From: Mytilus edulis
Taxonomy: Eukaryota
Reading direction: 5' to 3'
Length of the DNA: 64,000 nt
Assembly (NCBI RefSeq): GCF_963676685.1
Contig: NC_092352.1
Coordinates: 11,780,001 to 11,844,000, forward strand
Part shown: one piece after another, positions 1,873 through 64,000 of the stretch
Layout: every line of letters begins with the position of its first letter
Numbering within the stretch: position 1 is the stretch's first letter
The notes under the pieces: model-generated
Seen by the model: only the letters and a program-made list of their open reading frames with translations
What the model was told of the DNA's origin: nothing
Databases searched by the model: none
Position numbers and translations under genes: made by a program

Positions 1873-1954
1873 ATGATTTTGTTTTTGTTTTTTGGATGGA
1901 TTTCTTTTCTCGGGTATATTTATCCTTTCATTGTGCCATCAGCTTCTGAACCAG
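1873..1954 (+). CDS. Exon 1 (tentative): signal peptide MILFLFFGWISFLGYIYPFIVPSASEP
   Basis: ATG at 1873, hydrophobic N-terminus, donor CAG|GTATTG in phase 1 matching exon 2; implies a 10.8-kb first intron. Confidence 0.55.
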
Positions 1955-10900: not shown

Positions 10901-13900
10901 ATATCAATATTTGAACAAAAGAAAATATATCAATTTAAATAAATTGTCGATTTGTTTGATGTAAGTAACAAATAACAGACTTAACCGAGGCATTTTGATA
11001 CCAATGACCGCATTCAGATTCAAAAGATATTAATCATAGCATGCCAAAAGTGAATTTGGTAACCTAAATAGATAACATGAAATCAAAAATTAAGGCATGG
11101 AAAAAGAAACTATGGTGTTGAAAGTAATGATTATAAAATCTTTGAAACTACTAAATAAAATTGATAATGGAAATGGGGAAGGTTTCAAAGTGACAACAAC
11201 CGGACCATAGAACAGACAACAGCAGAAGGTCACCAACAGTTCTTCAATGTAGCGAGAAATTCCCGCACCCGAAGGCGTCCTTCAACTGACCCCTAAACAA
11301 ATATGTATACTAGTTCAGTGATAATGAACGCCATACTAAACTCCAAATTGTACACAAGAAACTAAATTTAAAATAATACAAGACTAACAAAGGCCAGAGG
11401 CTCCTGACTTGGGACAGGCGCAAAAATGTGGTGTGGTTAAACATGTTTATGAGATCTCAACCCTCCCCCTATACCTGTAGCAAAGTTTACATTTTTGGCT
11501 TTTTTTTCATGTTGTACCCGACAAACATATCGAAATAACTGAAAGGTTTGGTTTTAGACATATTTGGGAAGGAAAAACACTGATAGGCGAATATCATTCA
11601 ACAGCACTGAAATGATCATGGGTTATGGGTTAAATTCAACCATTCTGCCTAACTGGAAGATTATTCTTACCAAATATTTTAACAATCTGGGTAAATTTAA
11701 CAGAATTTAGATAATAAAAATTAATGAAAAGACTTCTGGAAAATACTAAGATTTTAGTAGCAGGTAATTTTAAGTCTGGGGAAAGTAGAAGGAGGTCTAA
11801 TAAAAGTCGAAAATAGTTTGGAAGAATAGACACATAAAACATTGCACTTCAAGCATGCTCTTTTCATGCTTGAAAACAAGTGGATTGTGTTAATTTACGT
11901 TTCTTGATTGAGTTAAGCCTTCCAATTGATATTTTATCGTGTGTTTTTCTATGTTGTAATGTTATGCTATTGTTTCAGAAAAAGGGAGAAGATTTGGTAC
12001 TATTAAAACGTTCAATTCAACCCACCATTTTTTCATAAAATGCCCTGTACCAAGTCAGCAAAATGGCCATTGTTACATTATAGTTCTTTTCTGTGTGTGT
12101 TACGTTTCGGTGTTGTGTCTCTGTTGTGTCGTAGTTCTCTTATATTTGATACGTTTCTCTAAGTTTAAGTTTGTAACCCGGATTTGTAATTTTATCTATC
12201 GATTTAGGAATTTTGAACAGCGGTATACTAATATTGCCTTTATTAATCCCGCTGCAAATGTTTGCACCTGTCCTAAGTCAGGAATCTGATGTACAGTAGT
12301 TGTCGTTTGTTTATGTAATTTATACGTGTTTCTCGTTTCTCGTTTTTTATATAGATTAGACCTTTGGTTTTCCCGTTTGAATGGTTTACACTAGTAATGT
12401 TGGGGCCCTTCATAGCTTGTTGTTCGGTATGAGCCAAGGCTCCGTGTATATTCAAACTATACAAAGAGAAAACTTGAATTCAGTGTCGATCAATTTTCTT
12501 ATTGACTACGCGTTGATTCTAGAAAAAAAGAAATACTTATAACGCATATCACGATTTACGTCAATGCGAAGAATTTCTTGAACTGAATTTGTATTTACGT
12601 TGTTCTGCAAGTTAATTTGTTAATCAATTGACTTAAGATCTAAAACAATTAAGTTGATAGCATAAAACAGTTTTTTTAAATATCTTATTACACATTTTAC
12701 CGGGTTTTTTTTTATTTATCAGCATGTCCAGGTATAGAATGTCTGTCTGGTCAAGAGATGAATATTACCACGTGTAGGTGTATCTGTAACGAGAGTAATT
12801 GGCCATGTTCTAATGGTAAGTAGTTAGTTGTTATAAAAAAAAGAACAAGTACTTACAGTTCTTTTATTTGTTTTTTTATTCCTAAATATAAGCGTTGTTT
12901 AAACTCATCTAAATGAAAATACTCAATGCTGTTAATTATGAGTTGTAAAACAATTGTGAGTTATAAATTGAGATATATAGGATGCACGTCTTGAAATTTC
13001 AATTGCACATGTCAAGGAAATTTCAACTTTTTAATATTATTTATTCTAATCGACTCCAAAGGAAATTGATTTAAAAGTATATACTTTACCATATGAGTGG
13101 GAAACGAAATGATTGAAAAAAGGCAATATCAGAGCGAGGTGCATACATGCAAAATGGCTTACTATACAGTTTAGGATCTACTCATTATTGAAGGCTTTAC
13201 GTAAAGGTAGTCTTTTTAAGGTAGTCTGTTTGGAAATCCTGCAACACATTTTCTTATTTTCCTTCTGGGTGAATAACTGCTGGAAAAAGAATAGGATATA
13301 GGTCGGAAACTTTTAGTATAAAGGTCGAACGACTATATAATAAAGTTTTGAAGCCTAAATGATAGAGGTCGAAAGACCTAAGAATAGAGGTTAAAGACTT
13401 TAGGATAATATTAAGGTCGGAAACCTAACAGATAGATGTCGTTAACCATAAAATTGAAGTCAAAAGACTAAATAATACGATAGATGTCAGAGGTTTAAAT
13501 GAAAGAAGTCAAAAACCTAAATGATAGAGATGGATATCTAAATGATATTTGACCTAATCTCTACCCCCCCCCCCCCCCCCCCAAAAAAAAACACACATTT
13601 TCTGAGTTTTAAATTTGATAATAATTTTCTTCTCTTATTGAAACTATAATGCATACCGGTAATTATCTCTTTCTAGAACTTGCAATTGCGATTGAAATAC
13701 ACTGAAAATGTTGGTCCAACTTTTGATAGATATAACATATAATATATTAATAAAATCACCTACACCTTCATACATTGTATGTTTTGGGGACGAAAAATCA
13801 AACTTATTTAATCTCTGTACAGATTCATATCCTCCTAGTATCTGGCCAACAGGAAGCTACGCGCTACCATCCAGCATGTATGGATGTCCTGAAGATAACT

Positions 13901-49900: not shown

Positions 49901-52900
49901 TAACAGTCAAGGTATATTTCTAGAATTAAAGTTTTAAAACTAATATAAAAAACTATCTCAAGCATAATTCTTTGAAATATTAATTTAACACAACAACAAA
50001 AATTACAGTAGCAATCAATCAAAGCAGAATAAAAAAAAAGTCTTTTGTATTTTGGATAACAAAAAAATCCATTTGGTCCTCAACGCTCTTCAACTTTGTA
50101 CTATATTTGGCCATTTGCCCATTTTTTTTATTTGTGTCACTGATGAGTGTTTTGTAGACGAAAAGCACGTCTAGCGCCAATATAAAATTTCAATCCTAAT
50201 ATCTATAAATGTTCAAATTTCTTAAATCCATAAATCCATAAATCCATATAGAAAATAAGAATCAAGGTAAACATATAAATCGAGAGAATCGCACGAAATT
50301 CAAAAAGTTGTAAGAATTGTACATCAATAGAACAAACCTTCTAATACATATGTATCTTACGCCATACGGTTCCACATCAATAAATACAGGGAATAGGATA
50401 AAATCTAGAATCAACTAACCAGACTACTATTCAGGTATGTTATGATCTAAGAACGTTTAAACATGTCGCTTATGAACAAAAAAACAGACACACATCTAGT
50501 GTGTCCATTACGCGCAATTAATGTCGGTTTCAGTAGGTCTTCCTTTCAAAACTATTGAATATTATATGGGGAGGGTTTGACGCAAGCAAACACGTTTCAC
50601 TTATCTGTATAGCTCGTTCTTATGCTGTACTGTATGTATGTGCCTGTTTCAAGTCAGAAGCCAGTAATTCAGGGGTTTTCTTTGCTTACTCGATTACATA
50701 TTTGTTTTTCGCTTATGAACCAAAAAACAGACACACATCTAGTGTGTCCATTACGCGTAATTAATGTCGGTTACAGTAGGTCTTCCTTTTAAAACTATTG
50801 AATATTATATGGGGAGGGTTTGACGCAAGCAACCACATTTCACTGATCTGTATAGTTCGTTCTTATGCTGTACTGTATGTATGTGCCTGTTTCAAGCCAG
50901 TAGCCAGTAATTCAGGGGTTTTCTTTGCTTACTCGATTACATATTTGTTTTTCGTTCAATGTTTTGTTTCGGCTGTGGTTTTTCTCGTTAGAATTGTTAA
51001 AAATTTGTCGCAGTGGATCATTTTATAGCTGAATATGCGTAATGGGCTTTGTTCATTGTTGAAGGCCGTACGATAACATATAGTTGTTAATTTCTGTGTC
51101 ATTTGGTCTCTTTGGAAGAGAAATAATACCGCATATTCGTTTTTTAGATTAACGCCCGGAAATTGTGTATGTTTCTATACATAAATCTAATTTAGTTGAA
51201 TGGTTTTATATTTGTCATCTTCTGCTGTATAGTTAAATATATAATGATAACATGTCATACCAACTTTCTTTTGACCTAATAATATATATATACCAACCCT
51301 GAAATTGAATTTCAAGAGATAAACTTTTTTTCTGTTTCAGTGACAGATTTAAGAAAAATTTTACGTGGCAATAAAGGAATATCAAGTCATAACCAATCCT
51401 TATTTACATGTGGAAATGGCGAGGTTATATCACAGCTAGCAGTTTGTGATACTTATAATGATTGTTCTGACAGGTCTGACGAACAAAAATGTGGTACGAA
51501 ATATTTTCCGTATCAATTTCAAAGTAAAACATGAGATACTAGAATTCCCAATATCCTTTTGTAATAAAAAAATAAAGATTTTACAAATATAACAACCACT
51601 TGAATTGTTTTGTTAAATTAAGGTTAAAACAAGAAACCTGAATATAAAAAAAGTTATGTATTCATGGTACATTCTATTGCTTATAATACCAACCAAATAA
51701 CTTAACTGCAAACTTAAGTTCTTGAAAAGATCGCTGCTTGTTAAGAACAAAAAAGATAGGAATGTTTAGAAAAAATTGATAAACCACAGGATAAAAAATA
51801 CATGTAAGTAATTAAAAAAAATCTTTTGAAGTCAAGAAATTACTCTAATCATTGACATAGGCCATAAAAGAAAGCTTCACATAATCTTTCGTTTCTATGA
51901 ATTTTTTCAAAAGGACCCTTTACTAATTAAAGTTATTTAAAGTATAACGTTATTTTTATGGTGATTTTCTTAAATAAAGCAAAGGTGTAAACCAACGAAT
52001 GATAAATATCTTAACCGAAGTATTGTTTTAATTTTAGATATTTCACTAATTTCCTTTCAGTACGCAGTAGATTTTGCATGTATTCTACAAGATGTAAAAA
52101 TAACAATGTGAACTGTCAACATTGATCAAACTATATTTTGAATTTAAAAACAAAAACAGTTATAAATATTTTATTACAAATAAGTATATCGGTGTTATGT
52201 AACCATGGTTGATTTATATTGATCTTTCGGTTATGTAGATTTAGTTAGAGCATGCGAAAATCTATAGCATTTACCCTGTATTTGATTAATTTTGTGTTTC
52301 AATTTGGAACATGAGTCACAGATAAAAATTTCTTATACGACAATTATATGTCGTATTTGAAAGATCAAAGTAAAGCAGTATTATTTGATACATACAGGGA
52401 TCTGTAAATTATTAAGTTTTGTTTTGCTCTCATTAATATCTTTAATATGTCTATTGCTTTGTTTCATTTACAATTTGATTTTTATATGAATTAAAGAATC
52501 TGTTCACTTATATAAAACGCTTCGAATCGGAGTAAATAAAATTCTATTCGCTTTAGCAAAATCAACAATGCAGTTATTGAAATTTTCCATAGTACAGGTT
52601 AGTAAACCAGTTATATACGCCTGCCAATGTTATGCAGTTGGTACTTTTTTATGTATCATTAATAAGAGAAAATTAACTATCAATACAAAACTATGTTTAT
52701 TTGTCTAATAATCACGGAATTTTATTCGGCATCATTCGTGGCAATCTGTATTCGCCTGTATATTTTCATATTGTAGCCGTAATCGTATGTAGTAGTTCTT
52801 GTATATCCGTGACAGTTTTTGAACATGCGCAAACCAAAGTGCAGAGAAGTGGAAAACTTAATTAGCGATCCTCCTCATTAAAAAAATGTTTCATTTGTAC

Positions 52901-55900
52901 ACTGAAAATATATAAGCCTTTTAATGTTGACTTACTTGTGTCAAAGACCACTATAGGAAATTGTCTTATATCTTCTGTTGTCTATCAATACAAAATCATT
53001 GACGAAATAGATAAATGAATTTTGGTACATAGAACAAAAACTTGTATCAAATATGTGTAAAATGAATGGCTTTTACCTCAAGTTGAAAATATATGATGAC
53101 GGTTATGACTATTCAAATTGTATTTTTTTTATATTCTCAATTTATATTTTTCAAGGTGTTTTCAGATAAAATTATATATTTTTTTAGTTCTGAGGGTAAA
53201 GCATTTATGTTTCTAAACTCAGGTACAGCATGTTCAAGTTCCCAGTATCAATGTGCAGATGGTTCGTGTATACATTTTACCTTCTACTGTGACCACATCA
53301 AACACTGCAATGATGGATCAGACGAACAACACTGTCGTAAGTTCAATAATAAACCGAACCATTGTATCATATTATTTTTTATAAAAATGTATATATGAAT
53401 GTTTGTCAAAAGGGAACACCATGAGGACATGCTGTAAGCTTACAAAATAGCAGGAGTTTCTGACAATTTCCACACACCAGCATTTCCCCCTTTTGTGTTC
53501 TTGCTAAACTCTCTTTTTCCCCTCAATTTGTCTTTCCTTTATTGATTAATGAGATTTTAACACTAACTATGAAACCGCTGTTGTCTATGTTTTGGTAAAA
53601 AAAAAAAAAGATGCTGATTGCATCCGTATCAATTTCAAAAAGCTTTTGTTTTCAACTGTGAGACATAAGATTGAAAATCCAGCATTTCCAGAGTTGGAAT
53701 GCATGTTTAATATATCTTGTTATCAATTCATTTTCTCTTCCTTATTAACGGAAATGATAATCGCTGACAAATAATGATATTTTTGATTTGAAATGAGTGT
53801 GTTGTTTGAACATTTACTGCTGGATGCTTAAAATAATGATTTGTAGCCTCTTTTATTGTATAGAATGGAGAAGTTGTAAAGACGGAGAATGGCAATGTAA
53901 CAATAAACAGTGTATTTATTCAGCTAAACGCTGTGACGTCACAACTAATTGTTTTGATGAATCGGATGAGAAAGATTGTGGTATATTCACTTATATGATT
54001 ATTTAAATGCTCCTTCACAAAAGATAAATGTTCCACAAAAATTCTTTGAAAAACTAAATGTTAAATAGTGAATATGTGGACAATTGAATATTGTTTTCAA
54101 ATAAAAAGATACCAAAGAGAAATTAAAACTCATGGAACGAATTAAAATGATATCATTTTATACGAGTCACTTCCCCTTTTATACAGGTCTGAATCGTGAT
54201 AATTGTAATCTTCAGTGAGTTGTAAATAACAATTATGTATTAAACGTTTTGCTCGTGCTTGTTTGCACTTTATGGACTTCATAGTCGAAGTGTTTGCACT
54301 TTGCACAAATACTGTTCAAACTGAGTTATGAAGAAGCCTGACTTATATCGATATTATATAAGATATGCCGTCACAATCACATTGACTGACCGAACATATT
54401 GTACTGAGTTGAGATATTTATATTCAAGATGTGATTGTCTGATTGACCGAGAGATTACAATTTTTGATAGTGTCATGTTTTCTGAATGTGGATTAGTGCC
54501 GTGTTCTACATGCAAAAACAAGCAAAAGACAAAAATCAGAATATGACCTTCATCGATAACCTTGTCGTCATTTTATAAGGTAGGACACAAGGACATCAAA
54601 TAAAAAGACTAGGTTTATACGGCTCAAGGTTTATTACTTACAAAAACATAAAGACACATTTTTTGGGAAAGGAAGATAACTCCGATAAGATTTCGAAGGA
54701 TCGCTTTAAGCAAAATCAGTAAAAAAAATCGTATATAATATACAATACAATATAGGAATTATCCAAGCGACATGGGGTTTTTTGTGTGTTCATCTACTTC
54801 ATAACAAAAAAAGATATAGACAAAACTCTTTTTCTTAGTTGTTTGTTAAATCCTCATACAGTGTAACTAATTAACAATAAGCCGTAAAGAACTTACGACT
54901 TTTGATTTAAGATACTAAAGTCATAACTTGTAAAATAATTTCAAGGTCACAGGTCAAGGTCATATTCTAATTCTTTTCCTTTGATAGTGTGTGCATTTCC
55001 TCTCAAACTATGAAAAAGTAAAATAAAAAAAAAACTAAATTCCGATGAAAATTTTAGGTAAATCGAATATAAACTCATTCTGGTTCATGATAAAGCCATA
55101 GTGTCTTATGCAATGATTCAGTGACACATGACCTTGAAAAATATCAAGCGGAAGTCATCTGTAAACTGGAAATAGCTATTTTTGCTTTAATGCACAGGAA
55201 AAATCCCCAGAAACTAAATGTTTTTAGGATTCACATATTGTAAAATCTTAATGACACCATGAGCTGCCTTTTAAACATCGGAAGTAGACACTAATCTCCG
55301 TTATTGAAAAGAGAAGTATGTAGATATCATATATTTTCGGAATCAGACGAAAATGAGCTATCATACGTGACTGAAAGAATATTTTCTTAACTGGAAGTAA
55401 TAAAGTATCCCCAAAGTTTATAGAATCTACACATTTTTTCATTTAGTTTTAAGAAACCTATGACTAGACGCCATTGTATCTTTTGGTTAATCGAAAGTAT
55501 CTTCTTATCAATTATTTGAAAATGTAAGTTGGAAAGACTTTCAATTATTCTCTGAACAACTTGTTTTTAATTCTTTTCTTTCTTTCTTTCACCCGCCAAA
55601 TTTCTTTCGTTGAATTTTGTTTCAAACTTGTCACTTAGATACTTTTTAAATTGTATGGTATAGTTGAGGCGCTTTTGAATTGCACTCTGCTAAGAGTAAC
55701 ACATTTCTTTGTAAGAGTTATCTCCTAATTCACTGTTTATCTTGTGTATGGTTTTCCGTTGTAACAAAAAAGATATTGACAAAACACTTTTTTGGAATCG
55801 TCACATTATCACGATTTATTTGGCTAATTTGAATCGCAGCGATCTTGTGAAATCTTACAGGAGATATCTACCTTTACAAAATGAATTTATCGGTATGTTA

Positions 55901-58900
55901 TTTTAAATCATTAAAAAATAACCGTTAAACTCTATATTGTTTTTATTTTAGGCCTCGAGGACCTAACTTAGAAAATGAGGTCAAGGTCAAAGCTCAAGGC
56001 CTTTTTTCAATTTTTTTTCTAATTTTCCCAGACTCTTCCAGTTATGTATAAAAGACAAAGTTATATTTCCAAACATCTTACTTTTTTAACATTCCAGGAG
56101 AGAAAAATCTTAAAAAATGTAACCTCACCGCTTCAAATAACAATTTAGTGAAAACCTTCGTCGATTTAAATTAGCAAGAAATTAATACTTGACCTTGATC
56201 TCATATTCTTTTTGGTGGACCCAAGATCTCAAAATCAAAAGACCCTAGGGCCTTTATTACTAACGGTTCATGAGTTACTATTACATTTCTCTTATGTCAA
56301 ATACGTAAAGGGATATAAATCTCATATGAAAACTTCAGATCTCTAGATTCAAAGTTATTCTCGACAACCCGAGTTTAAAAACAAGCAATTTGATAAAATA
56401 TTTTGTTCGTAATCTTTTAGGGTTGTGAAAAATACTCGGCACAAGAAAACTACTGTTCAGGGAGATAACTCTTACAAAAACAAGTCTTCGGTTCAATAAA
56501 TCTCAAAGGTACCAGGATTATAACAGTATCAGTTTTAAAAGTATAAACGATTCGATAGCATGTACCAAAAGTCTTTTGATACACCAATACAGCCCAAGGA
56601 AAAACTTAAAGGTGATACAAATTTCCGGAAACCCTTCTTAAAATTCAATTATTGCTAGATGATATATATAGAAAATTGTGAAACAAATAAGTCTCATTTA
56701 TATATTCGTGTTTATTTCATTTCTGATAATTTTGTAACTTAGCTGAAAATTAAAACTAATGATACCTACAAGAAAACAACCCTGGATTTCTGGTATTATC
56801 AAACACACAGGACTTCTCAATGTTCCAGTGAAATACATTGATAGCAGCAGAAAGTGCAATTTTTTGTTGTTGAATAAAAACAAATGTCATTTTATACTAT
56901 TCGCACCACTATCCCGTTTCATAACAATATTTTATAAAGTATTTTTTCAGAAACTTGTAGTTTTAACACTTATCAATGTTTTGATAAATCATGTATCAGT
57001 CAAGATCGTGTATGTGATACAACACCTGACTGTCCTGGAAGATACTTAGAGGACGAGTATGGATGTTCATACAGTGTCATACATACATCGTGTGAACAGT
57101 GGTGGCTCAATGGAGCGAGATTAAATGGGATGTATTTAATAGATCAAGAAACGAAAGGTATATATTAAAACCGTATCCATATTTAGTTCCAAATAAAGTA
57201 TTGATGACCACAAAAAAACTTTATATCAAGTTTAATTTTATTAAGATGACCATGAAAACTAATTCAACAAACGGCCGAAGATTGACAAAACACACGTAGT
57301 TCATAAAAGGGTTAGGACTAAGGTTATAATATTTAAATAAACTAATCATAGATACCAGAATTGAAATTTTATATTACGCCATATATGTATGATTGTTTTG
57401 TTTTCCAACAAATACCTTTTTTAATGTAAATGCAAACAAAAAATGATTTCATAGCTAGAGTATGTTTGTCCGAAAAAATCCATGATAGTAAAATTAAAAA
57501 AAATAATAATTGGTCTTTTAGTTTTTTTCTTATTTTGATTGTTTCATATGCAACATAGTTGGGTTTTTATTGTCGACTATAGGGTCTTTGGTTTTTTCAT
57601 AAATGATGACCATTTGGTCGCCTTTCAATTCTTATATCCACTTCATTTGAACTTTGGTGGATATATGTCAAATTGGCAAGCAAACCATATCTCCTTATTT
57701 CACTAATGTCTATTATGCTAAACTGTCAGAATAATTTAATTAATTTAAGAAATTACATAGAAAAGATTCATTTTTCTATGAACATCATTTACTAATTATA
57801 ACATCTGTTTAATGAATAGATCAAAGGTGACATTGAGTTCACTCAACAAACAAGTCTTCCTCAGGTATAATATTAGAAATCAAAGTATGTCACATACGGT
57901 TATGGTTATATACTCGAAAACACAAGAACAACCATGTTTTATCGTTGACATGGTGGTTGATATTTTATGACAAACCAGATCCGATATTAGGAAAATCTTA
58001 CTTCGATGATTTTGAACTAAATTATCCCTTTGTATGAAAAAAAAATGTGTGGCTAAATAATTTTTCCTTTTTAAAGGTATATTGTTAAAAAAAATCCAAA
58101 CAAGCAACATTGTCATTGCCAATTATTCAATTTTCATAACAAGTGTTTCAATATTTTGGTTAAAAGACTTTTCCATGAAAAAGAGTATTGTTAAAATAAA
58201 TACAAATAAGTAACATTGTTATGCCATTTATTTAATTTTAGAAAAATATATGGTATACTGTGAATTCAACGATAAAGGCAATACACTACTGATATCAACA
58301 TTCTTCTTTTATAACAAAGCTAATTTTTCAATCACCAATTATGCGACTTTCTATGCAGAACATGAAGAATTTAGTTTTCCTTGGCAAATGATAAAGACTG
58401 TAATGAAAAGTGATAAATATACGTGTTCACAAAATGTTAAAGTGACATGCTATTTTCAAAACGCTATATCATATGAATTTTCAAGAACTCACGAAGAATA
58501 TTTTGGCGAGTACTACAATGAAAGGCAAGTATTTAAACGTTCTTTAATTCTAACAAAAATAGTATCACCAATCTCACATTCATGAATGTCGTGTCCTCTA
58601 CACAATGCTCTTCAACTTTGTACTTGTTTGGCTTTATAAAAATTTTGATATGAGCGTCACTGATGAGTCTTATGTAAACGAAACGCGCGTCTCGCGTACT
58701 AAATTATAATCCTGGTACCTCTATAAGCCATCTATAAATTCACTTTTGGAAATATTCCAAAAACAGAAGGCCCAAAATAAATTGTTTCAATAATTTCGAC
58801 TCTCTTTGATTATAATATTTGTAAGGTTGTTTCTGTTAAACGTTTATGAAATATATTTAAAAGCACATTAAAAAAATTATTTCGGATTTGAAATTTGGGA

Positions 58901-61900
58901 TAATTCGTTAAAAAAAAATGATAATGCGAAAGGGGAATCTATGTACTATGGAATAATTTTTGTTATTTCGATGCCTATAATTTATAACCTTGTTTTAGTA
59001 TTTTCCTTTTTATAACAGTTAATAAAGGATTAAATTAATCAACACATATAGGTCTTAAAACATGTTTTGTACAATGTACAATTTTTCTGAAAATAGTCTG
59101 TTTAATCATCATAAAATTATTTTCTTTTTTGTAGTTTTCATTGCTTTGGAGGCACAGACTGGAGACAAGCAGATGTCAACAGAGTGTTTACTGATGATGT
59201 AGTTATTTCAAATTCCGATATAATTCCCTTTTATTATTATACGGTTCCAAAAATATCTTACAGTGAAGAGGGGTTTTCTGATTTGAGAGTTGGACCTGTT
59301 GTATGTCGGTCAGGTATATCATCAAATATAGACAGCATGCTTATATGTTTAAGTGTTAAGATGAAAAAAGGTTTTAAAACTCAATACAATAATTATTGTT
59401 TCTGATGTTTTTGCAAGAAAAAAAAACACGCTTTACTAATGATGCTAAATTTATAATGTTCGCTGTTAAAGATTGTGACGAGATTAAACTGATCAATTAC
59501 GTGCTATCTTCTATTTAATGTCATATAAATTGTTGTACAGTTTTTTGTATTATTTAGATACGTACACCAATATTTAGTGTGTACTTGTACTTTTGAGTTA
59601 ATACTAAATAAGTATTTGAACTCAGACCATTAAAAATATGTTTGATTATGTCATTTTTAATAACTCAGAGTTCATGCAATTCCCAAGTTTAGCGGTGAAA
59701 TGATTTAAGCATATCATTTACTGACTTTATCATACGCAAATATGGATAATAAATCAATTCAGCATATGCTGAATTGTTCAATTTATACAGAAATTTTGGT
59801 TCGAAATTAATGTAATAAATATTAAACTTTGCATATGGGTCATACATACCAAGTTCTTTCAAGCATTTACCTAATTCATCTAGCATGTACTTAATTCAGT
59901 TACTTTTATAATGAATTAAGTTTATGCTAAAATGAATTTAAAAGTAAAATCACAAAAATAATAGATTGCGAGGAAAATTCAAAACGGAAATTCACTAATC
60001 AAATGGCAAAATTAAAGGCTCAAACCCATCAAACGAATGGAGAACAAATGTCATATTCCTGACTTTGTATAGTCATTTTCTTATATATGAAAATAGTTGA
60101 TTAAACCTGGTGTTATAGCTAGCTGAACCTCTCACTTGTATGAAAGTTCATAAAATTTCATTTTATTGACAACGATAAGTTATGCTAAAATAAATCGAGA
60201 TTATGTTAAAAGGTTGTGGTAACATTAATTGAGCTTATGCTAAAGTAAATTAAGCTTATCCTGAATCATAACCTGTATCTATATGATAAACTAATTGTGT
60301 TTTAAATGAAAAGCTCACTGTATTAACTAAGTGGTTGAAAAATTACTGCATGCAATCCTTACTTATACAAACATAACTCAACTTATTGATGATCAGACAA
60401 TTATTGATACTTAGGCCGTACTCTCATTGACCTAACCTAGTTTTTGAAAGCTATCAATCAAATAATTGTGTTCAAAATTTAACACTTTAAGGTATGGGGA
60501 AATCTGGATTCAGATTTTCTTTCCCTCATTGAACAGAATATTTTTCATCAATTTTAGAATCAGAACATTTTTTAGTTGTCTTTTTTAATAAACATCCAAA
60601 TGTGTTCAATTCCCCATACGTGTCTATACCAAGCTTTTTTTCCTTTACTGGAACTATCATTCGTGTCCATGTTATAAATACGTATGTTATTTGGTTCATG
60701 CTTCTAAATTAAAGTATAGTTATTTAACTATTTCATTAATAAAAAAAAATACTTTAGGTCTTTTATAACCTTGGTTAAGGATGTATTTAGGTGATATAAG
60801 GTAAAATTCAAGAATTTTATTGATTTATAGAATATGGCGAAAAAAGGCAGACTCGGACTTTTACCTTTTATTTGCATTGGTATTATTTGGGTCTCAAATC
60901 AAAAGAACGAAAATTGAGGATCTGTTTGAATTCTGTTAAATGACCTTTTATGATCTATTAAATCATATGTTAAAAAATAAATAGGTGTTAAGGGGCAACA
61001 TATTTTACCTTGCATGGTATAGAAAAACACCAAGGATTCCGAACTTTCACACTTATTCCAAAACCTCATCTAAGTACATCCTGAGCGTGGAGCGTTCGTT
61101 CGTCTATGTTGAATGTAAATGTTAGCAGCCATGCTCAGTTAAATTGGAGATATTAAATCAGATACCTCGTGTAGGTGAATGTCTCATTCTCTGCGCATTA
61201 AAATATTTGCAGCACTTCACTCTTTCTTTGTGTCATCAGTTGTCTGTTGGGAGGCAACTTTGTTTTAAATTTCCGCACATTTTAATTAAAACGGCATCTA
61301 TAACATATAGAGAAGATTGAAATAGTTCCTTACTTAAGTAAAATAAAATGGCCATTACTCGCTCCTATTTTTTTTTACATGAAAATCCCAACAAGTGTTT
61401 ATCCTGAATAGCCGTACAAATCTGTGCCAAATCCTAAATTCCGGGTATGGTAATATAACCTATATACAGTATGTATTGTTAACATGATGTCGTTCAAATA
61501 ATGCAGGAAATATGTGACACTGGACGTTATGCCTCTTGATCGTGTGTCTTATGTGATACTCGAAACTTAAAGTTTATTTTAAAAATCTCGATAACCAGTT
61601 TCTGATTCGAAGAGCTTTTAGAATATTACTGTTGACAAAAGGGAAGTCAATTCTGCTACATGAAAGCCCGCAATATTTGGATTAATATAAAAGGTATCAT
61701 TAGAGTTAATTAGTACAAAATAATTTACATAGTAAACGATTTAATCAACTCTTGAATTATTTGTATGTTTGCTCTTAATGAGCATGAAATACTTGCAACT
61801 GGACAATAAGCAATTTCAGTCAAAATCTACAAATTAAATTTGCAATTATGATAATCATTATAAACCGACACTTAAAAAACTAATGCTAATAAATGACAAC

Positions 61901-62367
61901 TTCATCAACTGTGTCCCCCATCATTGAATTACTTATGCTGAAATGAATTTAGCATATTCTGAAATGTGTTAAGCGTATGCTGAAATAAATGTTAGGCAGT
62001 ATTTCTGTATGAGCTTAATAAAGCAGCATATACTAAATCAAATTAAGCATACCCTATTATGGTAAAATACGCTGACATCAATAAAGTTTATGCCACATTA
62101 TAATTTAGCATATGCTAAAAGGATTAAAGTATATGATTAATTAAATATTTATGACACTGATTCTGCGTCATAGATATATAATATTTAAAAATGGGGTAAA
62201 CATTGTTGTTCATATTTATTTGTCAGAAATTTCTAAAAATGTTTCCCGTATCCAGTCCTTGTGTTATGATGGAAAGTTGTATAACTATACAGACCACTGT
62301 ATAATGCGTGTGAATGAAAGAAATGATGTAAATGGTTGTAGAGATATGGCTCAACTTCACAATTGTG
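1873..62367 (+). CDS. Multi-exon gene (25 exons in window, 3' end beyond window): mosaic extracellular protein ApeC-FTP-FA58C-PAN-like-CUBx2-CTLD-LDLax4-FBG/CASPR-like; probably the ectodomain of a GRL101-like LDLa/LRR GPCR
   Basis: Manual exon chain with AG acceptors, GT (two GC) donors and matching phases gives one open frame of 1527 codons; domain motifs recognisable in each exon. GPCR assignment is inference from the last exon; no LRR or 7TM is visible in the window. Confidence 0.85.
3225..3517 (+). repeat. Dispersed non-coding repeat (other copies about 2530-2850 -, 9760-10338 +, 29095-29270 -, 50950-51145 +); long copies carry the twister-like core
   Basis: shared gctgactatgcggtatgggctttg..ttgttgaaggccgtacggtgacctatag..gttgtctcattggcaatcat. 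Confidence 0.8.
4158..4203 (+). ncRNA. Degenerate hammerhead in retrozyme-like repeat (about 3995-4235)
   Basis: CTGATGA and GAAAC intact, but triplet is GTG and helix III is altered. Confidence 0.65.
4245..4891 (-). mobile_element. Diverged Penelope-like RT C-terminus and tail
   Basis: minus strand ETTDT.SSASF...TRIYDKRDNFN...SSNIPTAP..GIYISRLIRYSRAC with stops and frameshifts. Confidence 0.7.
5266..5311 (-). ncRNA. Degenerate hammerhead
   Basis: core reads CTTATGA...GTAAC on the minus strand. Confidence 0.55.
5411..5994. mobile_element. MITE / non-autonomous DNA transposon
   Basis: TIRs aaggagtaggtccagtaagacc / ggtccttaccggaccttttcctt; internal inverted repeat 5652-5679 vs 5735-5762. Confidence 0.75.
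6676..7067. mobile_element. TTAA-flanked MITE-like element (related inverted copy about 19834-20197)
   Basis: ttaa|GGT...ACC|ttaa; shared gaggattcc..aatctg..aaaatt subterminal sequence. Confidence 0.5.
7071..8510 (-). mobile_element. 5'-truncated Penelope-like retroelement, Naiad-type (RT is C-terminal), disrupted
   Basis: KTFDFSTLYTSIPH, QQTVGIPMGTNCAP, YIDD, SYLDL, AYGV..SQLIRY; ORF ends after the thumb with no C-terminal GIY-YIG; long insert between motifs A and B. Confidence 0.88.
10680..10822 (+). repeat. Penelope-like 3' tail fragment
   Basis: reverse complement of 7071-7210. Confidence 0.75.
11392..11481 (-). ncRNA. P5-type twister-like motif, same family, slightly degenerate
   Basis: minus strand ...agggggagggttgagatctc...tttaaccacaccacatttttgcgcctgtcccaagtcaggagcctctggcc. 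Confidence 0.65.
11967..12300 (+). ncRNA. Twister-like motif (P2 TCCC/GGGA, loop TCCTAAGT) split by a nested insertion at about 12016-12242
   Basis: 5' half ctattgtttcaga..GGGA-G-A-AGA; 3' half TAA-TCCC-GC-tgcaaatgtttgca-CCTG-TCCTAAGT-CAGG-aatctga..cagtag. Confidence 0.55.
12723..12815 (+). CDS. Exon 2: Cys-rich CxCxC module (CPGIECLSGQEMNITTCRCICNESNWPCSN)
   Basis: tttatcag acceptor, G|GTAAGT donor, phase 1-1, 93 nt. Confidence 0.8.
13295..13545 (+). repeat. Degenerate minisatellite, about 22-26 bp unit (gatagaggtcgaaagacctaa), followed by poly-C 13564-13582
   Basis: recurrent aggtcg.aa.ac.ta motif. Confidence 0.65.
13823..14158 (+). CDS. Exon 3: ApeC domain, N-part (WPTGSYALPSSMYGCP...LNFCV...GNFCVF...GCAI)
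   Basis: tgtacag acceptor, G|GTAAGT donor, phase 1-1; WPxGxYxLPxxxxGCP is the ApeC signature. Confidence 0.9.
14722..15268 (+). mobile_element. Penelope-like RT C-terminus plus 3' tail
   Basis: NIPAAPAY..ISQLIR..ACISYHDF.DRGLL; same tail as 7071. Confidence 0.85.
15445..16000 (+). repeat. Dispersed non-coding repeat carrying twister-like motif (inverted copy 11155-11481)
   Basis: reverse-complement identity between 15676-16000 and 11155-11481. Confidence 0.85.
15676..15766 (+). ncRNA. P5-type (circularly permuted) twister-ribozyme-like motif, near intact
   Basis: P5 ggctagaggt/gcctcttgcc; GGGG-G-A-GGG; T^AA-CCCC-GC; P3 cgcaattttgcg; P4 CCTG-TCTCAAGT-CAGG; predicted cut 15719/15720. Confidence 0.72.
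16399..16477 (-). ncRNA. Truncated twister-like motif
   Basis: same family, 3' P5 strand missing, T2 mutated. Confidence 0.5.
16581..16687 (+). ncRNA. Twister-like motif variant (T2 = ACC/GGT) in repeat 16515-17020
   Basis: G-A-GGT...C^AA-CCC-AC-P3-CCTG-TACCAAGT-CAGG, flanked by P5 gccat/atggc; P2 imperfect. Confidence 0.55.
17809..17972 (+). CDS. Exon 4: ApeC domain, middle (GFKEG...VIFCCKED...YPFVLLK)
   Basis: tag acceptor, AAG|GTATGA donor, phase 1-0; FCC and PFxLL motifs; absent from the ORF track. Confidence 0.88.
18240..18625 (+). mobile_element. Old Penelope-like RT N-part fragment
   Basis: MYWLPYLHKTPF and FDFST..TTLPH remnants. Confidence 0.55.
18855..19047 (+). CDS. Exon 5: ApeC domain, C-part (CEHINDM...IPFCVYQP)
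   Basis: aatag acceptor, G|GTACGT donor, phase 0-1. Confidence 0.88.
19438..19480 (+). ncRNA. Degenerate hammerhead in retrozyme-like repeat (about 19232-19524)
   Basis: CTGATGA present, GAAA mutated to GGAA. Confidence 0.6.
20701..20811 (+). CDS. Exon 6: start of F-type-lectin-like domain (SIGRPVYSSPYL...NPNFVVDE)
   Basis: tttctag acceptor, G|GTAAAG donor, phase 1-1. Confidence 0.78.
21804..22468 (-). mobile_element. Penelope-like RT C-terminus plus 3' tail
   Basis: KTKLYDKRGDFSFPIVNF.FLSSN.P.APAYGVYISQLIRYSRAC. Confidence 0.87.
22701..22817 (+). CDS. Exon 7: F-type-lectin-like domain (RPWIQIDLQQFINVTHIISRDER)
   Basis: ctcacag acceptor, A|GTAAGT donor, phase 1-1; PWxQxDL motif. Confidence 0.88.
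26148..26292 (+). repeat. Penelope-like 3' tail fragment
   Basis: matches 15120-15268. Confidence 0.75.
27176..27394 (+). CDS. Exon 8: end of F-type-lectin-like domain (CRRPITGQYVTL...LTDLKVFG)
   Basis: ttacag acceptor, C|GTAAGT donor, phase 1-1. Confidence 0.88.
27855..28452 (-). mobile_element. Second Penelope-like subfamily, RT C-terminus plus tail
   Basis: IYPSELEI.DTTDTDKSASYL...TKIYDKRDDFNFPIVNFPFLCSN. Confidence 0.8.
28928..29085 (+). CDS. Exon 9: F5/8 type C (discoidin) domain start (CGRNLGMITGDIKDYQIETSS...GWCS...RWLM)
   Basis: tttatag acceptor (in-phase alternative at 28934), ATG|GTAAAT donor, phase 1-0; classic LGMxxGxIxDxQI motif. Confidence 0.9.
29590..29739 (+). CDS. Exon 10: F5/8C middle (VDLIVPTTVQGITLHG...)
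   Basis: cctag acceptor, AAG|GTAATA donor, phase 0-0, 150 nt. Confidence 0.9.
31226..31740 (-). mobile_element. Penelope-like linker plus GIY-YIG endonuclease relic (C-terminal EN type)
   Basis: with frameshifts: MVAFKQPNSLLKLLVR, C.SCDEKCCKC, MTCNRINAMCFLECSICGLQYVEESKQPFH.RLN, PVSQHF, QRHVRKKFWIKEL. Confidence 0.75.
32101..32452 (-). mobile_element. Near full-length retrozyme-like monomer (about 350 bp, non-coding, hammerhead-bearing)
   Basis: Longest copy of the repeat also seen at 3995-4235, 48370-48577, 58602-58720 and 62775-62836; TTATAA on both flanks. Confidence 0.75.
32135..32180 (-). ncRNA. Minimal type I hammerhead ribozyme, intact core
   Basis: reverse complement gagcgtcactgatgagtcttatgtagacgaaacgcgcgtctggcgt. 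Confidence 0.88.
33014..33128 (+). mobile_element. Short GIY-YIG C-terminal relic
   Basis: MKSLVNEQN..SSDDQ..VRQNIWIQKL...NGINRK. Confidence 0.5.
33877..34030 (+). CDS. Exon 11: F5/8C end (ILARYIKI...CFKAEFIGC)
   Basis: ttttag acceptor, G|GTAATA donor, phase 0-1. Confidence 0.9.
35208..35314 (-). ncRNA. Twister-like motif variant in repeat 34887-35390 (inverted copy of 16515-17020)
   Basis: near-identical reverse complement of 16581-16687. Confidence 0.55.
35437..35483 (-). ncRNA. Highly degenerate hammerhead in related repeat
   Basis: minus strand gcgtaactggtgagtcttgtttggacaaggcgcgtttttggcgt aligns with the family. Confidence 0.45.
36651..36962 (+). CDS. Exon 12: Cys-containing module, possibly degenerate PAN/apple (SSMNFEECQQL...NHCCYY)
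   Basis: ctatag acceptor, CAG|GTAAAG donor, phase 1-1, 312 nt open; domain name uncertain. Confidence 0.82.
38055..38214. mobile_element. Palindromic foldback MITE (160 bp hairpin)
   Basis: gaaataattcatgggggcttgaatatatc... / ...gatatattcaagcccccatgaattatttc with a short central loop. Confidence 0.88.
38338..38552 (+). CDS. Exon 13: CUB domain 1, N-part (IYSPLFPSNYPQ...PGMYLKL)
   Basis: ttttaag acceptor, CAA|GTAAGT donor, phase 1-0. Confidence 0.88.
38916..39132 (+). CDS. Exon 14: CUB domain 1, C-part (CKDTLSV...IKIHFKS)
   Basis: aaacag acceptor, G|GTAATA donor, phase 0-1. Confidence 0.88.
41868..42275 (+). CDS. Exon 15: CUB domain 2 (ISSYLYPSLY...WKIRG...YVEVFD...MDVEF...GRGFLGLY)
   Basis: tttcag acceptor, G|GTAAGA donor, phase 1-1, 408 nt. 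Confidence 0.92.
44960..45575 (+). mobile_element. Helentron/HINE-like non-autonomous repeat with CGT/GTC microsatellite
   Basis: gtcgtcgtccgtagtctgtcgtcg tract then aatcttctcccctgaaac; internal duplication of aacaacccattgttggg. Confidence 0.45.
46039..46242 (+). CDS. Exon 16: C-type lectin domain, N-part (CTTTWVNFKTSCY...AEMECVKEGGHLISINS...IYI); GC donor
   Basis: ttttag acceptor; only G|GCAGGT gives the phase 1 needed to read IYIGL into exon 17. Confidence 0.85.
46642..47872. mobile_element. Non-autonomous TIR DNA transposon (possibly PIF/Harbinger-like)
   Basis: TIRs cacccgagtcacactagactacaatcgcac / gtgcaatcgtggccttgtgtgactgcggta; tta/taa flanks; CACGA/TACGA-rich interior. Confidence 0.7.
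47902..48049 (-). repeat. Penelope-like 3' tail fragment
   Basis: matches 7071-7215. Confidence 0.8.
48501..48546 (+). ncRNA. Minimal type I hammerhead, intact core, intron 16, gene sense
   Basis: ccgtca-CTGATGA-GTCT(tgtgt)AGAC-GAAACGCGCGTC^tggcgt; cut after 48540. Confidence 0.85.
48586..48664 (+). CDS. Exon 17: C-type lectin middle (GLVKKNKGYKFSDYQWLNGEPLVYTAW), 79 nt
   Basis: tttcag acceptor, TG|GTAATA donor, phase 1-2; WxNGxPxxYxxW motif. Confidence 0.88.
48971..49016 (+). ncRNA. Minimal type I hammerhead, intact core, intron 17, gene sense
   Basis: gcgtca-CTGATGA-GTCT(tttgt)AGAC-GAAACGCGCGTC^tggcgt; cut after 49010. Confidence 0.87.
49736..49911 (+). CDS. Exon 18: C-type lectin C-part (QPDG...EQC...WHDVPC...FMCE)
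   Basis: ataag acceptor, G|GTATAT donor, phase 2-1. Confidence 0.9.
50134..50177 (+). ncRNA. Degenerate hammerhead, intron 18
   Basis: CTGATGA intact; helix II and III mismatches (GAAAAGCACGTC). Confidence 0.6.
50467..50953 (+). repeat. Tandem duplication, 2 x 243 bp
   Basis: units start at 50467 and 50710; twin ORFs at 50555 and 50798. Confidence 0.92.
51341..51493 (+). CDS. Exon 19: LDLa repeat 1 (4-Cys variant FTCGNGEVIS...CDTYNDCSDRSDEQKC)
   Basis: tttcag acceptor, G|GTACGA donor, phase 1-1; DCxDxSDE motif. Confidence 0.9.
53223..53336 (+). CDS. Exon 20: LDLa repeat 2
   Basis: CSSSQYQCADGSCI...CNDGSDEQHC; ctcag acceptor, C|GTAAGT donor. Confidence 0.92.
53864..53980 (+). CDS. Exon 21: LDLa repeat 3
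   Basis: CKDGEWQCNNKQCI...CFDESDEKDC; tatag acceptor, G|GTATAT donor. Confidence 0.92.
56951..57157 (+). CDS. Exon 22: LDLa repeat 4 plus start of fibrinogen/CASPR-like module (TSCEQWWLNGARLNGMYLID)
   Basis: ttttcag acceptor, AAG|GTATAT donor, phase 1-1; frame not reported in the ORF track. Confidence 0.9.
58242..58524 (+). CDS. Exon 23: fibrinogen/CASPR-like module (MVYCEF...CSQNVKVTC); GC donor
   Basis: ttttag acceptor; AAG|GCAAGT donor in phase 2 matches exon 24. Confidence 0.87.
58652..58697 (+). ncRNA. Hammerhead with intact core but helix I/II mismatches, intron 23
   Basis: CTGATGA-GTCT..AAAC-GAAACGCGCGTC-tcgcgt. Confidence 0.7.
59135..59313 (+). CDS. Exon 24: end of fibrinogen/CASPR-like module (LRVGPVVC)
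   Basis: ttgtag acceptor, CAG|GTATAT donor, phase 2-1. Confidence 0.87.
60778..61082. mobile_element. MITE
   Basis: TIRs aggatgtatttaggtga / tcatctaagtacatcct. Confidence 0.6.
62227..62367 (+). CDS. Exon 25: Cys-rich module (HCIMRVNERNDVNGCRDMAQLHNC) of the kind preceding the last LDLa repeats and LRRs in GRL101-like receptors
   Basis: tgtcag acceptor, G|GTAAGA donor, phase 1-1. Confidence 0.85.
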
Positions 62368-62792
62368 GTAAGATAAACGAATTGTATTATAAAAACTAAA
62401 CATGTGGAACAGGAATTGTATCTAAGAGCAGTCCAGATTTTGGTTATGTTCACTCTTGTGTCTTCTATGTTATGTTTTGTAGACTGTTGTTTGGCTATTC
62501 GTCGTTTTTTGTCATGCCGTTGTCAGTAATTTGACGGCGGAATTCGAGTGTGTTGGTATCTGGAGCCTCTCTTTCAAGGGACCAAGGGTCTGACATTTAC
62601 TTGATATTTCATGACTGTAGTCTGACCTATACCTAACAGGCTGAACGAGTACACGACCAGTACTTAGCCATTCTATACGAGTCTGAACCATAGTCGACAA
62701 GTCGTAACGATTCTCAACCAAGTCCGAACCACATTCGAGTTAGTATGAATAATACTTATCCTAGTCTGAAAAAAAGTTATCAAAGATACCAG

Positions 62793-62836
62793 GCCAATCG
62801 CGCGTTTCGTCTACATAAGACTGCTCAGTGACGCTC
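62793..62836 (-). ncRNA. Degenerate hammerhead
   Basis: core CTGAGCA, triplet lost. Confidence 0.55.
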
Positions 62837-63559
62837 CATACTCAAAAACTGACAAAACTAAAACAGCAGAATACCCTTAAAAATACGGCACTAGTAAGCG
62901 CGCGAAAAAAAAGCAGAATATATATTTTGTTGAAAATAAAAGTCAGGATAAGAAAATCCTTCATGACCCCTCTCCTAGAAATGAAATGATTGCTCTGTTA
63001 TGTAAAGGGTGCACTCAGTGGATGATATTTTCTTTAAATTCAGAATTCGATATATACTTATTAATTAAGAATATGTTAAATTGAATTAAGCTAATACTGA
63101 AATGAGTTTAGCATATGCTGAAATGAGTTAAGCATATGCTATAATGAGTAAAGCATATGCAGGAGTAAATGTATAAGATAATGATTACCTTGATTCAGTA
63201 ATTGACTAATTCGTATTGAACAGATCTGTTTTGTATATATCTATTGTATTGCATCAAGTTAGGAACTGGTTTACACGCATATATTTATGCGCATCAACTA
63301 ATACAACTTGGTTGTGACATAAAAGATCTATGACGTTGTTTCTAGCAATGAAAAAACGTCAAATTATAACGTCCTATTTCGCGTTTTTCACGGATTCCAA
63401 CATTACATGGTGTACTCCTAAAAATACGTCTCCTAAGAAAAGAGGAATTAAGCGTTGCGCTGATATCTTGTGGAAATTTAACACAAATGAACACAATAGA
63501 TACTACACTATATTTAACCTTCAATCTGATAAAAATAATAAAATATAAATTTTGATCTC

Positions 63560-63815
63560 GAACTTTTTGCGCCGATCTGCATTTCATTTTTTTTTTTTTT
63601 ATTCTGTTACATGCGTAGATTTTATCTTATATTTACGCCGATCTGCACTTCATTTTTTTTATTCTTTCACTTGTGTGGATTTTGTCTCATATTTGCGCCG
63701 ATCTGCATTTTATTATTTTTATTCTTTGAATTTTGTAGATTTTGTCTTTCATTTTCGACGAAAGTGTACAGGTAACGTAGATTTTGTCCTTTATTTGCGC
63801 CGAATATGTACAGGT
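63560..63815 (+). repeat. Minisatellite, about 53 bp unit (gcgccgatctgca...gtagattttgtc)
   Basis: three full and two partial units. Confidence 0.8.
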
Positions 63816-63829
63816 TATCGGGGTTATTA

Positions 63830-64000
63830 GAATGGTGAAAGTTATTTATTATATGTCCAATTTATGTTTTCTGGTCTGTGCGTCCGTTTGTCAGTTCGTC
63901 CGTCCTTCCGTCCCAATTCAGGTTTAAGTTTTTGGTCAAGGTAGTTTCGATGAAGTTGAAGTCCTATCAATTTAAAACTTAGTATACATGTTCCCTATGA
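63830..64000 (+). mobile_element. Start of HINE/Helentron-like repeat with GTCC tract
   Basis: gtctgtgcgtccgt..gttcgtccgtccttccgtccc. Confidence 0.4.

What the first reader, a model, noticed from the sequence alone, without database searches (positions are those of the whole stretch)
1873..62367. Unusual mosaic receptor: ApeC + F-type lectin + discoidin + PAN-like + 2 CUB + C-type lectin + LDLa + fibrinogen-like, probably on a GRL101-like GPCR
Seen: at least four different candidate glycan or microbe-binding folds in one ectodomain of more than 1500 aa. Established: ApeC domains bind peptidoglycan components in amphioxus and usually occur alone or with MACPF; GRL101-type LGRs have LDLa arrays, LRRs and 7TM. 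Inference: an ApeC-tipped GPCR would be a candidate signalling pattern-recognition or settlement-cue receptor. The LRR and 7TM parts are not in the window.
Basis: partly seen in the sequence, partly recalled or inferred. Interest (0 to 1): 0.75.

Follow-up and report, generated by a model that had tools for sequence, protein, structure and literature searches.

The report
Mussel GPCR tipped with lectin-like modules
This is the front of one 31-exon mussel gene for a predicted 2,273-residue cell-surface G-protein-coupled receptor that carries a long string of lectin-like and protein-binding modules and a broken kinase remnant inside the cell, a bivalve family already listed in databases but never tested, which likely senses sugar-coated particles such as microbes.

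Summary
Confirmed and extended. The exons form one open frame of 2,273 aa (31 exons, from 1873 to about 11.5 kb past the window). Order: signal peptide, EGF-like, ApeC, F-type-lectin-like, discoidin, PAN-like, 2 CUB, C-type lectin (QPD/WHD), 4 LDLa, fibrinogen-N-like, 2 LDLa, LRR, relaxin-receptor-type 7TM, kinase remnant. The predicted LRR-7TM exon lies 4.2 kb beyond the window. Three paralogues keep the same 31 exons in open frame (dN/dS 0.30). Oysters and scallops share the architecture, and a 7,353-nt assembled contig encodes a whole 2,377-aa oyster relative without room for introns. The family is not new: its oyster and scallop members are 'Group 9' of a 2022 mollusc ApeC survey, untested and not called receptors in that text. 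This scan noted a similar clam gene before. New here: a Mytilus subclade that lost the kringle and has DRY changed to DCY, and a catalytically dead kinase remnant after the 7TM in most of the family. No splice junction of this gene was seen in RNA; ligand and signalling are inferred. One gene about 0.93; glycan or microbe sensing about 0.45.

The parts
1873..1954 (+). Exon 1: signal peptide and conserved mature N-terminus (aa 1-27)
   Evidence: hydropathy peak at aa 2-20; exon found in all five copies modelled
12723..12815 (+). Exon 2: six-cysteine EGF-like module (by eye)
   Evidence: no Pfam hit
13823..19047 (+). Exons 3-5 (13823-14158, 17809-17972, 18855-19047): ApeC domain, 8 Cys, 0 of 3 DXED motifs
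20701..27394 (+). Exons 6-8 (20701-20811, 22701-22817, 27176-27394): F-type-lectin-like galactose-binding-domain fold, no fucose motif; the kringle found before it in oysters and scallops is absent
28928..34030 (+). Exons 9-11 (28928-29085, 29590-29739, 33877-34030): F5/8 type C (discoidin) domain
36651..36962 (+). Exon 12: PAN-like module
38338..39132 (+). Exons 13-14 (38338-38552, 38916-39132): degenerate CUB 1
   Evidence: aligns to first CUB of oyster relatives; no Pfam hit alone
41868..42275 (+). Exon 15: CUB 2
   Evidence: E 1.1e-9
46039..49911 (+). Exons 16-18 (46039-46242, 48586-48664, 49736-49911): C-type lectin domain with QPD...ExC...WHD; GC donor after exon 16
51341..57157 (+). Exons 19-22 (51341-51493, 53223-53336, 53864-53980, 56951-57157): LDLa 1-4 and start of fibrinogen-N-like module
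58242..59313 (+). Exons 23-24 (58242-58524, 59135-59313): fibrinogen-N / neurexin-IV / COLFI-like module; GC donor after exon 23
62227..62367 (+). Exon 25: cysteine-rich linker
62368..64000 (+). Start of intron 25. The gene goes on past the window: exon 26 LDLa 5 (L010:1409-1525); exon 27 LDLa 6, LRRs, DEFSSC hinge, TM1-6 with D-C-Y for D-R-Y (L010:4189-5748); exon 28 TM7 with NPLLY (L010:6185-6306); exons 29-31 tail with protein-kinase remnant and stop (L010:9109-9178, L010:9532-9761, L011:1330-1470)

Best explanation
The window holds exons 1-25 of what is likely a single gene: its 31 exons read as one open frame for a predicted 2,273-aa relaxin-receptor/GRL101-type GPCR, which likely works as a sensor of large sugar-bearing particles such as bacterial walls or mucus. 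Shown: the exon chain, the domain order, purifying selection on every module, and conservation across mussels, oysters and scallops. Inferred: (1) the distal modules, above all the C-type lectin with its conserved QPD/WHD calcium site and the eight-cysteine ApeC, would bind the particle by avidity; (2) the membrane-proximal LDLa-LRR-hinge unit would relay occupancy to the 7TM as in RXFP1; (3) oyster, scallop and the other mussel subfamily keep D-R-F/L and would signal through G proteins, whereas this subclade has Arg3.50 to Cys and is predicted to respond weakly through G proteins and to lean on arrestin, uptake or docking at its dead kinase remnant. One gene about 0.93; the confidence given is for the glycan-sensing mechanism.
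For: Open frame and canonical splice sites. Paralogues B, D, E give open frames of 2,268, 2,267, 2,257 aa from the same 31 exons (the window gene's phases were imposed in that fit). All 8 full-length 7TM matches at 48% identity or more, of 17 matches in the genome, have an ApeC exon upstream on the same strand, and the frameshifted C12 copy has ApeC exon 5 upstream. Full-length ApeC+7tm_1 models in Ostrea, Saccostrea, Crassostrea/Magallana, Ylistrum, Mizuhopecten. P0156, 2,377 aa on a 7,353-nt Logan contig, needs 7,134 nt, so it is spliced. dN/dS 0.30 overall, 0.17 in 7TM, 0.32 ApeC, 0.46 in the F-type-lectin-like and fibrinogen-like modules. QP[DN]G..ExC..W[HN]D in 23 of 24 aligned rows. Best PDB match of exon 27 is RXFP1, E 1.2e-49 against 6e-37 for LHCGR. 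Short mollusc ApeC proteins bind Lys-type peptidoglycan, also one with all three DXED motifs changed (PMC9585378). V2R R137C in the DRY motif has small constitutive Gs activity, constitutive arrestin recruitment and weak agonist response (PMC2792721).
Against: No ligand, expression site or signalling data. In four RNA or presumed-RNA runs laid on exons 3-11, none of the 15 listed joints matched an intron (73 more not shown, repeats dominated) and several exon bins had depth under 2. RefSeq splits paralogue D into an ApeC-only model (P0002) and a model starting inside the F-type-lectin-like domain (P0006), and many Mytilus models are fragments. No full-length database protein for this very gene turned up; best identity among long models about 73%. 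ApeC has 0 of 3 DXED motifs; the F-type-lectin-like module lacks the fucose motif. Discoidin, CUB, PAN and LDLa often bind proteins or lipids, not sugars (established knowledge). RXFP1 itself has E-K-Y at this motif and is solved as a Gs fusion, so type C receptors tolerate change there.
Confidence: 0.45

Rival explanations
1. A receptor for an endogenous protein ligand (insulin/IGF-like peptide or a large lipoprotein complex) bound by the LRR and LDLa units, with the distal modules acting as tether or co-receptor.
For: 7TM and hinge are RXFP1-like. GRL101 was proposed to bind IGF or large (lipo)protein complexes (PMC8286064; PMC2396169). LRR-hinge and LDLa are among the most conserved parts (80% and 79% identity between paralogues).
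Against: A separate gene on C4 with a long LDLa array, the same hinge and D-R-L looks like the canonical GRL101. Receptors of this group were single-copy in the ambulacrarians surveyed, while this family has at least 8 copies here.
Confidence: 0.27
2. An adhesion or matrix-sensing receptor: discoidin, CUB, PAN and a neurexin-IV/Caspr-like module read extracellular matrix or a neighbouring cell (nerve, mantle, foot, gamete).
For: The fibrinogen-like module is nearest to neurexin-4/COLFI/GON clusters (0.90). PAN profile hits saratin (E 0.0076). Discoidin matches factor VIII and neuropilins. PMC9585378 describes the Group 8 and 9 domains as typical of extracellular and matrix proteins.
Against: It does not explain the conserved sugar site in the C-type lectin domain or the repeated tandem expansion.
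Confidence: 0.15
3. In this Mytilus subclade the protein is a non-signalling scavenger or decoy that binds and internalises ligand.
For: D/E-C-Y/F in all 10 rows of this subclade with TM3 aligned versus D-R-F/L in all other family rows; long stem branch (0.65); LDLa arrays are typical of uptake receptors (established knowledge).
Against: 7TM stays under strong purifying selection (dN/dS 0.17); CWxP, TM6 Asp and NPxxY are kept; R137C in V2R is not silent.
Confidence: 0.1
4. Two or more neighbouring genes: a secreted ApeC protein followed by a shorter GRL101-like receptor.
For: RefSeq models P0002 and P0006 for paralogue D; short models such as P0162 (695 aa) in oyster. No splice joint seen.
Against: The split falls inside one folded domain (exons 6-8); P0002 ends by reading into intron 6 and neither model starts with the signal-peptide exon; only one signal peptide in the chain; spliced full-length contig for an oyster relative. 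Short secreted isoforms are not excluded.
Confidence: 0.05

Closest known systems
Mollusc ApeC-containing proteins, Group 9 (Li et al. 2022, PMC9585378): XP_034305975-7, OWF42800 and others
   Same: Same family: three of these accessions came up as full-length relatives (P0177, P0182, P0030), colinear from ApeC to 7TM, one clade on the 7TM tree (98/97).
   Different: Group 9 lists no Mytilus member. The text calls them complex proteins with over ten domains and has no hit for 'transmembrane'; Figure 1B could not be seen and may draw the 7TM. The window's subclade lacks the kringle and has D-C-Y.
GRL101 / type C2 LGR (Lymnaea stagnalis GRL101)
   Same: Several LDLa repeats, LRRs, relaxin-receptor-like 7TM; DEFSSC hinge shared with the canonical-looking C4 gene of this genome.
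   Different: GRL101 has 12 LDLa and 6 LRR. Here 6 LDLa are split 4+2 by a fibrinogen-like module, about 1,140 aa of other modules precede them, and a kinase remnant follows the 7TM. Probably a paralogue, not the orthologue.
RXFP1 (relaxin receptor, PDB 7tmw)
   Same: Closest solved structure for LRR-hinge-7TM.
   Different: One LDLa, known peptide ligand, Lys at 3.50, no lectin-like modules.
GPCR-kinase fusions (GPCR-TKL/K, GPCR-TK; PMC12716839)
   Same: 7TM followed by a kinase-derived C-terminal domain.
   Different: Those are reported from choanoflagellates, oomycetes, amoebozoans and sponges. Here it is a rhodopsin-class receptor in a bilaterian and only about 120 residues of the kinase fold remain, without catalytic motifs.

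Membership tests
Type C LGR (relaxin-receptor/GRL101 group) | LRRs, hinge and rhodopsin-class 7TM with LDLa in the ectodomain | tested here: met
GRL101 (type C2) | Multiple LDLa repeats before the LRRs | tested here: met
   6 repeats, 4+2
GRL101 (type C2) | Ectodomain made of an LDLa array and LRRs only | tested here: not met
   many further modules; definition from PMC8286064
GRL101 (type C2) | Orthology to Lymnaea GRL101 on a 7TM tree | tested here: inconclusive
   No labelled GRL101 sequence was available; the family is a clade apart from the C4 LDLa-array gene, with a long-branch warning
Class A GPCR signalling motifs | Arg3.50 of the DRY motif | tested here: not met
   D-C-Y in this subclade; D-R-F/L in oysters, scallops and C1-type mussel genes
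Class A GPCR signalling motifs | CWxP and NPxxY | tested here: met
ApeC domain | Pfam PF16977 above cut-off and eight cysteines | tested here: met
ApeC domain | Three DXED motifs | tested here: not met
   0 of 3; also changed in BgACP1 and amphioxus ACP5
ApeC domain | Peptidoglycan binding | not testable with these tools
   bench assay needed
Mollusc ACP Group 9 | Homology over the whole complex architecture to the listed members | tested here: met
   (32.5% identity over 2,418 columns to P0156, which clusters with the listed oyster accessions)
F-type lectin | Fucolectin fold | tested here: met
   Model of relative P0032 (mean pLDDT 52): 1k12 Z 9.8, rmsd 4.7, 122 aligned; 3cqo Z 9.4, rmsd 3.1, 118 aligned; tied with CBM62; profile E 0.0033 to 3cqo but 1e-4 to factor V
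F-type lectin | Fucose motif H-x26-R-x-D-x4-R (motif recalled, not from a call) | tested here: not met
C-type lectin, sugar-binding | Calcium site 2: QPD or EPN, Glu, WND-like (motif from established knowledge) | tested here: met
   QPD..E..WHD; 23 of 24 rows; His replaces Asn
PAN domain | Pfam PAN match | tested here: inconclusive
   3 of 5 members hit PAN_1, best E 6.4e-6; window exon alone no hit
Fibrinogen-related domain | Full fibrinogen C-terminal domain with ligand site | tested here: inconclusive
   only about 40 N-terminal residues match, E about 0.7; atlas leads COLFI/GON/neurexin-4 at 0.90
Protein kinase | Kinase-derived fold | tested here: met
   Profile of 7 tails: SYK E 5.6e-5, 778 PDB sequences at E<=1, the 60 shown are kinases; oyster tail model pLDDT 78.5, Rad53 Z 9.5, rmsd 3.4, 107 aligned; nearly all 50 rows kinases or pseudokinases
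Protein kinase | Gly loop, VAIK Lys, HRD Asp, DFG | tested here: not met
   none present; most of the N-lobe and the activation segment are missing

The most novel reading that the evidence does not exclude
A GPCR that is itself a pattern-recognition receptor: ApeC and lectin modules bind bacterial wall or biofilm glycans and signal straight across the membrane, in this mussel subclade through arrestin or the kinase remnant rather than a G protein, giving bivalves a direct sensor for infection or for biofilm settlement cues.
Probability: 0.2. Interest if true: 0.85.

Novelty: new variant of a known kind. Interest (0 to 1): 0.55.

Why it matters
The ApeC functions in the papers read come from short secreted proteins, and GRL101 is called an orphan receptor (PMC11863921). 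A conserved, tandemly expanded family that joins an ApeC and lectin antenna to a type C LGR gives a defined candidate for how bivalves turn contact with microbes or matrix into a cell signal. The two mussel subfamilies lost complementary parts (kringle and Arg3.50 in one, most of the kinase remnant in the other), which makes a natural comparison for testing the signalling route. The kinase remnant extends 7TM-kinase fusions to a rhodopsin-class receptor of a bilaterian.

Tried and rejected
RNA: no RNA holder listed on record by the run search. The lay on exons 3-11 listed no splice joint and was swamped by transcribed repeats; no RNA result exists for the other exons, so splicing of this gene is not shown. 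First exon model missed exons 17 and 26 and two GC donors; corrected by paralogue comparison. Foldseek on the low-confidence 548-aa model gave nothing at E<=0.001; ApeC and the kringle were barely tested by the fold searches. A PAN profile built from the family did not recover the PAN of P0051. Literature: GRL101+apextrin 0 papers, GRL101+ApeC 0, six gene ids or accessions 0; some searches gave listings with no title on this receptor; the top 20 had no GRL101 mention. PMC11521371 passages were irrelevant. Figures are not held, supplements were read for one paper only, and the earlier ApeC survey cited there as ref. 5 was not read; any of these may show the architecture. No gastropod or non-mollusc full-length relative appeared, but these searches are limited and a Haliotis ApeC-only protein (P0044) is similar. 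Own-genome counts are lower bounds. Look-ups of earlier notes by place and by sequence gave nothing. No complex prediction was run.

Full report
Observation. Six-frame reading of the window shows short coding exons in AT-rich introns on the + strand. Single exons match Pfam ApeC, CUB and four LDLa above cut-off, and Lectin_C and F5/8C below it. The closest database proteins are from Mytilus. With these and the paralogues as guides, the exons join into 31 exons, 6,822 nt and 2,273 aa with one terminal stop. Two introns use GC donors, shared by 5 of 5 and 4 of 5 modelled copies.

What follows the window. A 1,560-nt exon 4.2 kb past the window (L010:4189-5748) encodes an LDLa, LRRs, a DEFSSC hinge and TM1-6. 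Exon 28 gives TM7 and exons 29-31 the tail. The best solved match is RXFP1.

One gene or two. For one gene: a single signal peptide. Four more copies (A, B, D on C9; E on C12) have the same exon order, and B, D, E read open to 2,257-2,268 aa (I imposed the window gene's phases in that fit, so phase agreement is not independent, but open frames and near-equal exon lengths are). All 8 full-length close 7TM matches among 17 in the genome have an ApeC exon upstream on the same strand. Oyster and scallop models are full length. P0156 is a 2,377-aa protein on a 7,353-nt Logan contig, which leaves no room for introns; it is 89% identical to Magallana models and colinear with the window protein at 32.5%. 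Against: RefSeq splits paralogue D into P0002 and P0006 and fragments many Mytilus copies, but that split falls inside the F-type-lectin-like domain. My RNA lay on exons 3-11 showed 0 of 15 listed joints at an intron, with 73 unlisted and very low exon depth. Splicing of this particular gene is not shown.

Domain checks. ApeC keeps 8 cysteines and none of the three DXED motifs. Exons 6-8 take the fucolectin/CBM fold in a low-confidence model of a relative but lack the fucose motif, which I recall from memory. The C-type lectin keeps QP[DN]..ExC..W[HN]D in 23 of 24 aligned rows, the exception being a model that lacks the stretch; it is the best candidate sugar site. PAN scores in 3 of 5 members. 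The fibrinogen-like module matches fibrinogen only weakly over 40 residues and is nearer to COLFI/GON/neurexin-4 clusters. Pairwise dN/dS among W, B, D, E is 0.30 overall, 0.17 in the 7TM, 0.46 in the F-type-lectin-like and fibrinogen-like modules and 0.61 in the signal peptide plus EGF part: below 1 everywhere.

First, the tail is kinase-derived. A profile of 7 tails finds protein kinases, 5 of 7 hit PK_Tyr_Ser-Thr weakly (best E 0.00067, below cut-off), and the oyster tail model aligns to kinase folds. It lacks the Gly loop, VAIK, HRD Asp and DFG, so it is predicted to be catalytically dead. Second, the 7TM tree (29 rows, none dropped) holds the family together at 98/97, apart from a canonical-looking LDLa-array LGR on C4, and shows two Mytilus subfamilies (the tool warns of long branches near the outgroups). 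The window's subfamily (99/97) lost the kringle that oysters, Mizuhopecten and the C1-type mussel genes carry after ApeC and has D/E-C-Y/F for DRY. The C1 type keeps D-R-F but has lost most of the kinase remnant.

Mechanism. Most likely the distal modules bind a large sugar-bearing particle by avidity and the LDLa-LRR-hinge unit relays this to the 7TM. This is inference from the parts. Short mollusc ApeC proteins bind Lys-type peptidoglycan, including one with all DXED motifs changed (PMC9585378). An Arg-to-Cys change in the DRY motif of the vasopressin V2 receptor gives small constitutive Gs activity, constitutive arrestin recruitment and weak agonist response (PMC2792721), but RXFP1 has Lys there, so the effect in an LGR is uncertain. 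Rivals are a protein-hormone receptor, as proposed for GRL101, a matrix or adhesion sensor, and a decoy. A GRL101-like gene is reported as tentacle-specific in a snail, with a speculative chemosensory role (PMC13403566). Nothing here points to settlement in particular.

What is known. The supplementary table and tree of PMC9585378 list XP_034305975-7 and OWF42800 as Group 9. Three of these are P0177, P0182 and P0030 here. The text describes Groups 8 and 9 only as complex proteins with over ten domains, tests neither, and has no hit for 'transmembrane'. Figure 1B was not visible. Databases label several members GRL101-like. Searches for GRL101 with apextrin or ApeC, and for gene ids, found no paper.

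What I saw of each paper. PMC9585378: abstract, parts 2-3 of 6 of the text, passages, and the text of its one supplement. PMC2792721: abstract and passages. PMC8361754, PMC8286064, PMC11863921, PMC2396169, PMC13403566, PMC12716839, PMC4079206, PMC11521371: passages only. All others: search listings.

Verdict. Real, most likely single, conserved and expanded gene. The family is catalogued but unstudied, and this subclade is a distinct variant. Interest 0.55.

Noticed in passing
G000:C9 paralogue A, about 151-261 kb upstream of the window, minus strand (within L030-L049): Lacks exon 9 and has a stop in TM6, so a null copy here; P0005, its nearest row on the tree, has both intact, which suggests a polymorphic loss.
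   Followed up: partly
window 85-188, minus strand: Remnant of the last exon of a further copy, in two frames.
   Followed up: no
L011:2558-3502, minus strand: Degenerate copies of exons 13-14 with stops, between the tail-to-tail genes W and D.
   Followed up: no
G000:C12:37.77-37.91 Mb: Two near-identical tandem copies; the second has a frameshift in the LRR-7TM exon. The first has tandem repeats of part of exon 28 and repeated tail exons.
   Followed up: partly
G000:C1:70.46-70.65 Mb: Three copies of the second mussel subfamily; a database member, P0202, has a further kringle-like stretch in front of the EGF-like module.
   Followed up: partly
G000:C4:19.34-19.40 Mb (L087-L092): Canonical-looking GRL101 gene: about 8 LDLa exons seen, DEFSSCEDLM hinge, D-R-L, introns inside the 7TM region, whereas the present family has LRR to TM6 in one 1,560-nt exon.
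   Followed up: partly
window 32100-32452: Intronic repeat with high RNA read depth; hundreds of reads join 32452 back to 32100 with a few letters between. Tandem copies elsewhere or a circular form; not resolved.
   Followed up: no
L012:7941-8951 and L013:8076 to L014:268: Reverse-transcriptase-like and THAP/transposase-like frames on the + strand inside introns of paralogue D, judged by eye.
   Followed up: no
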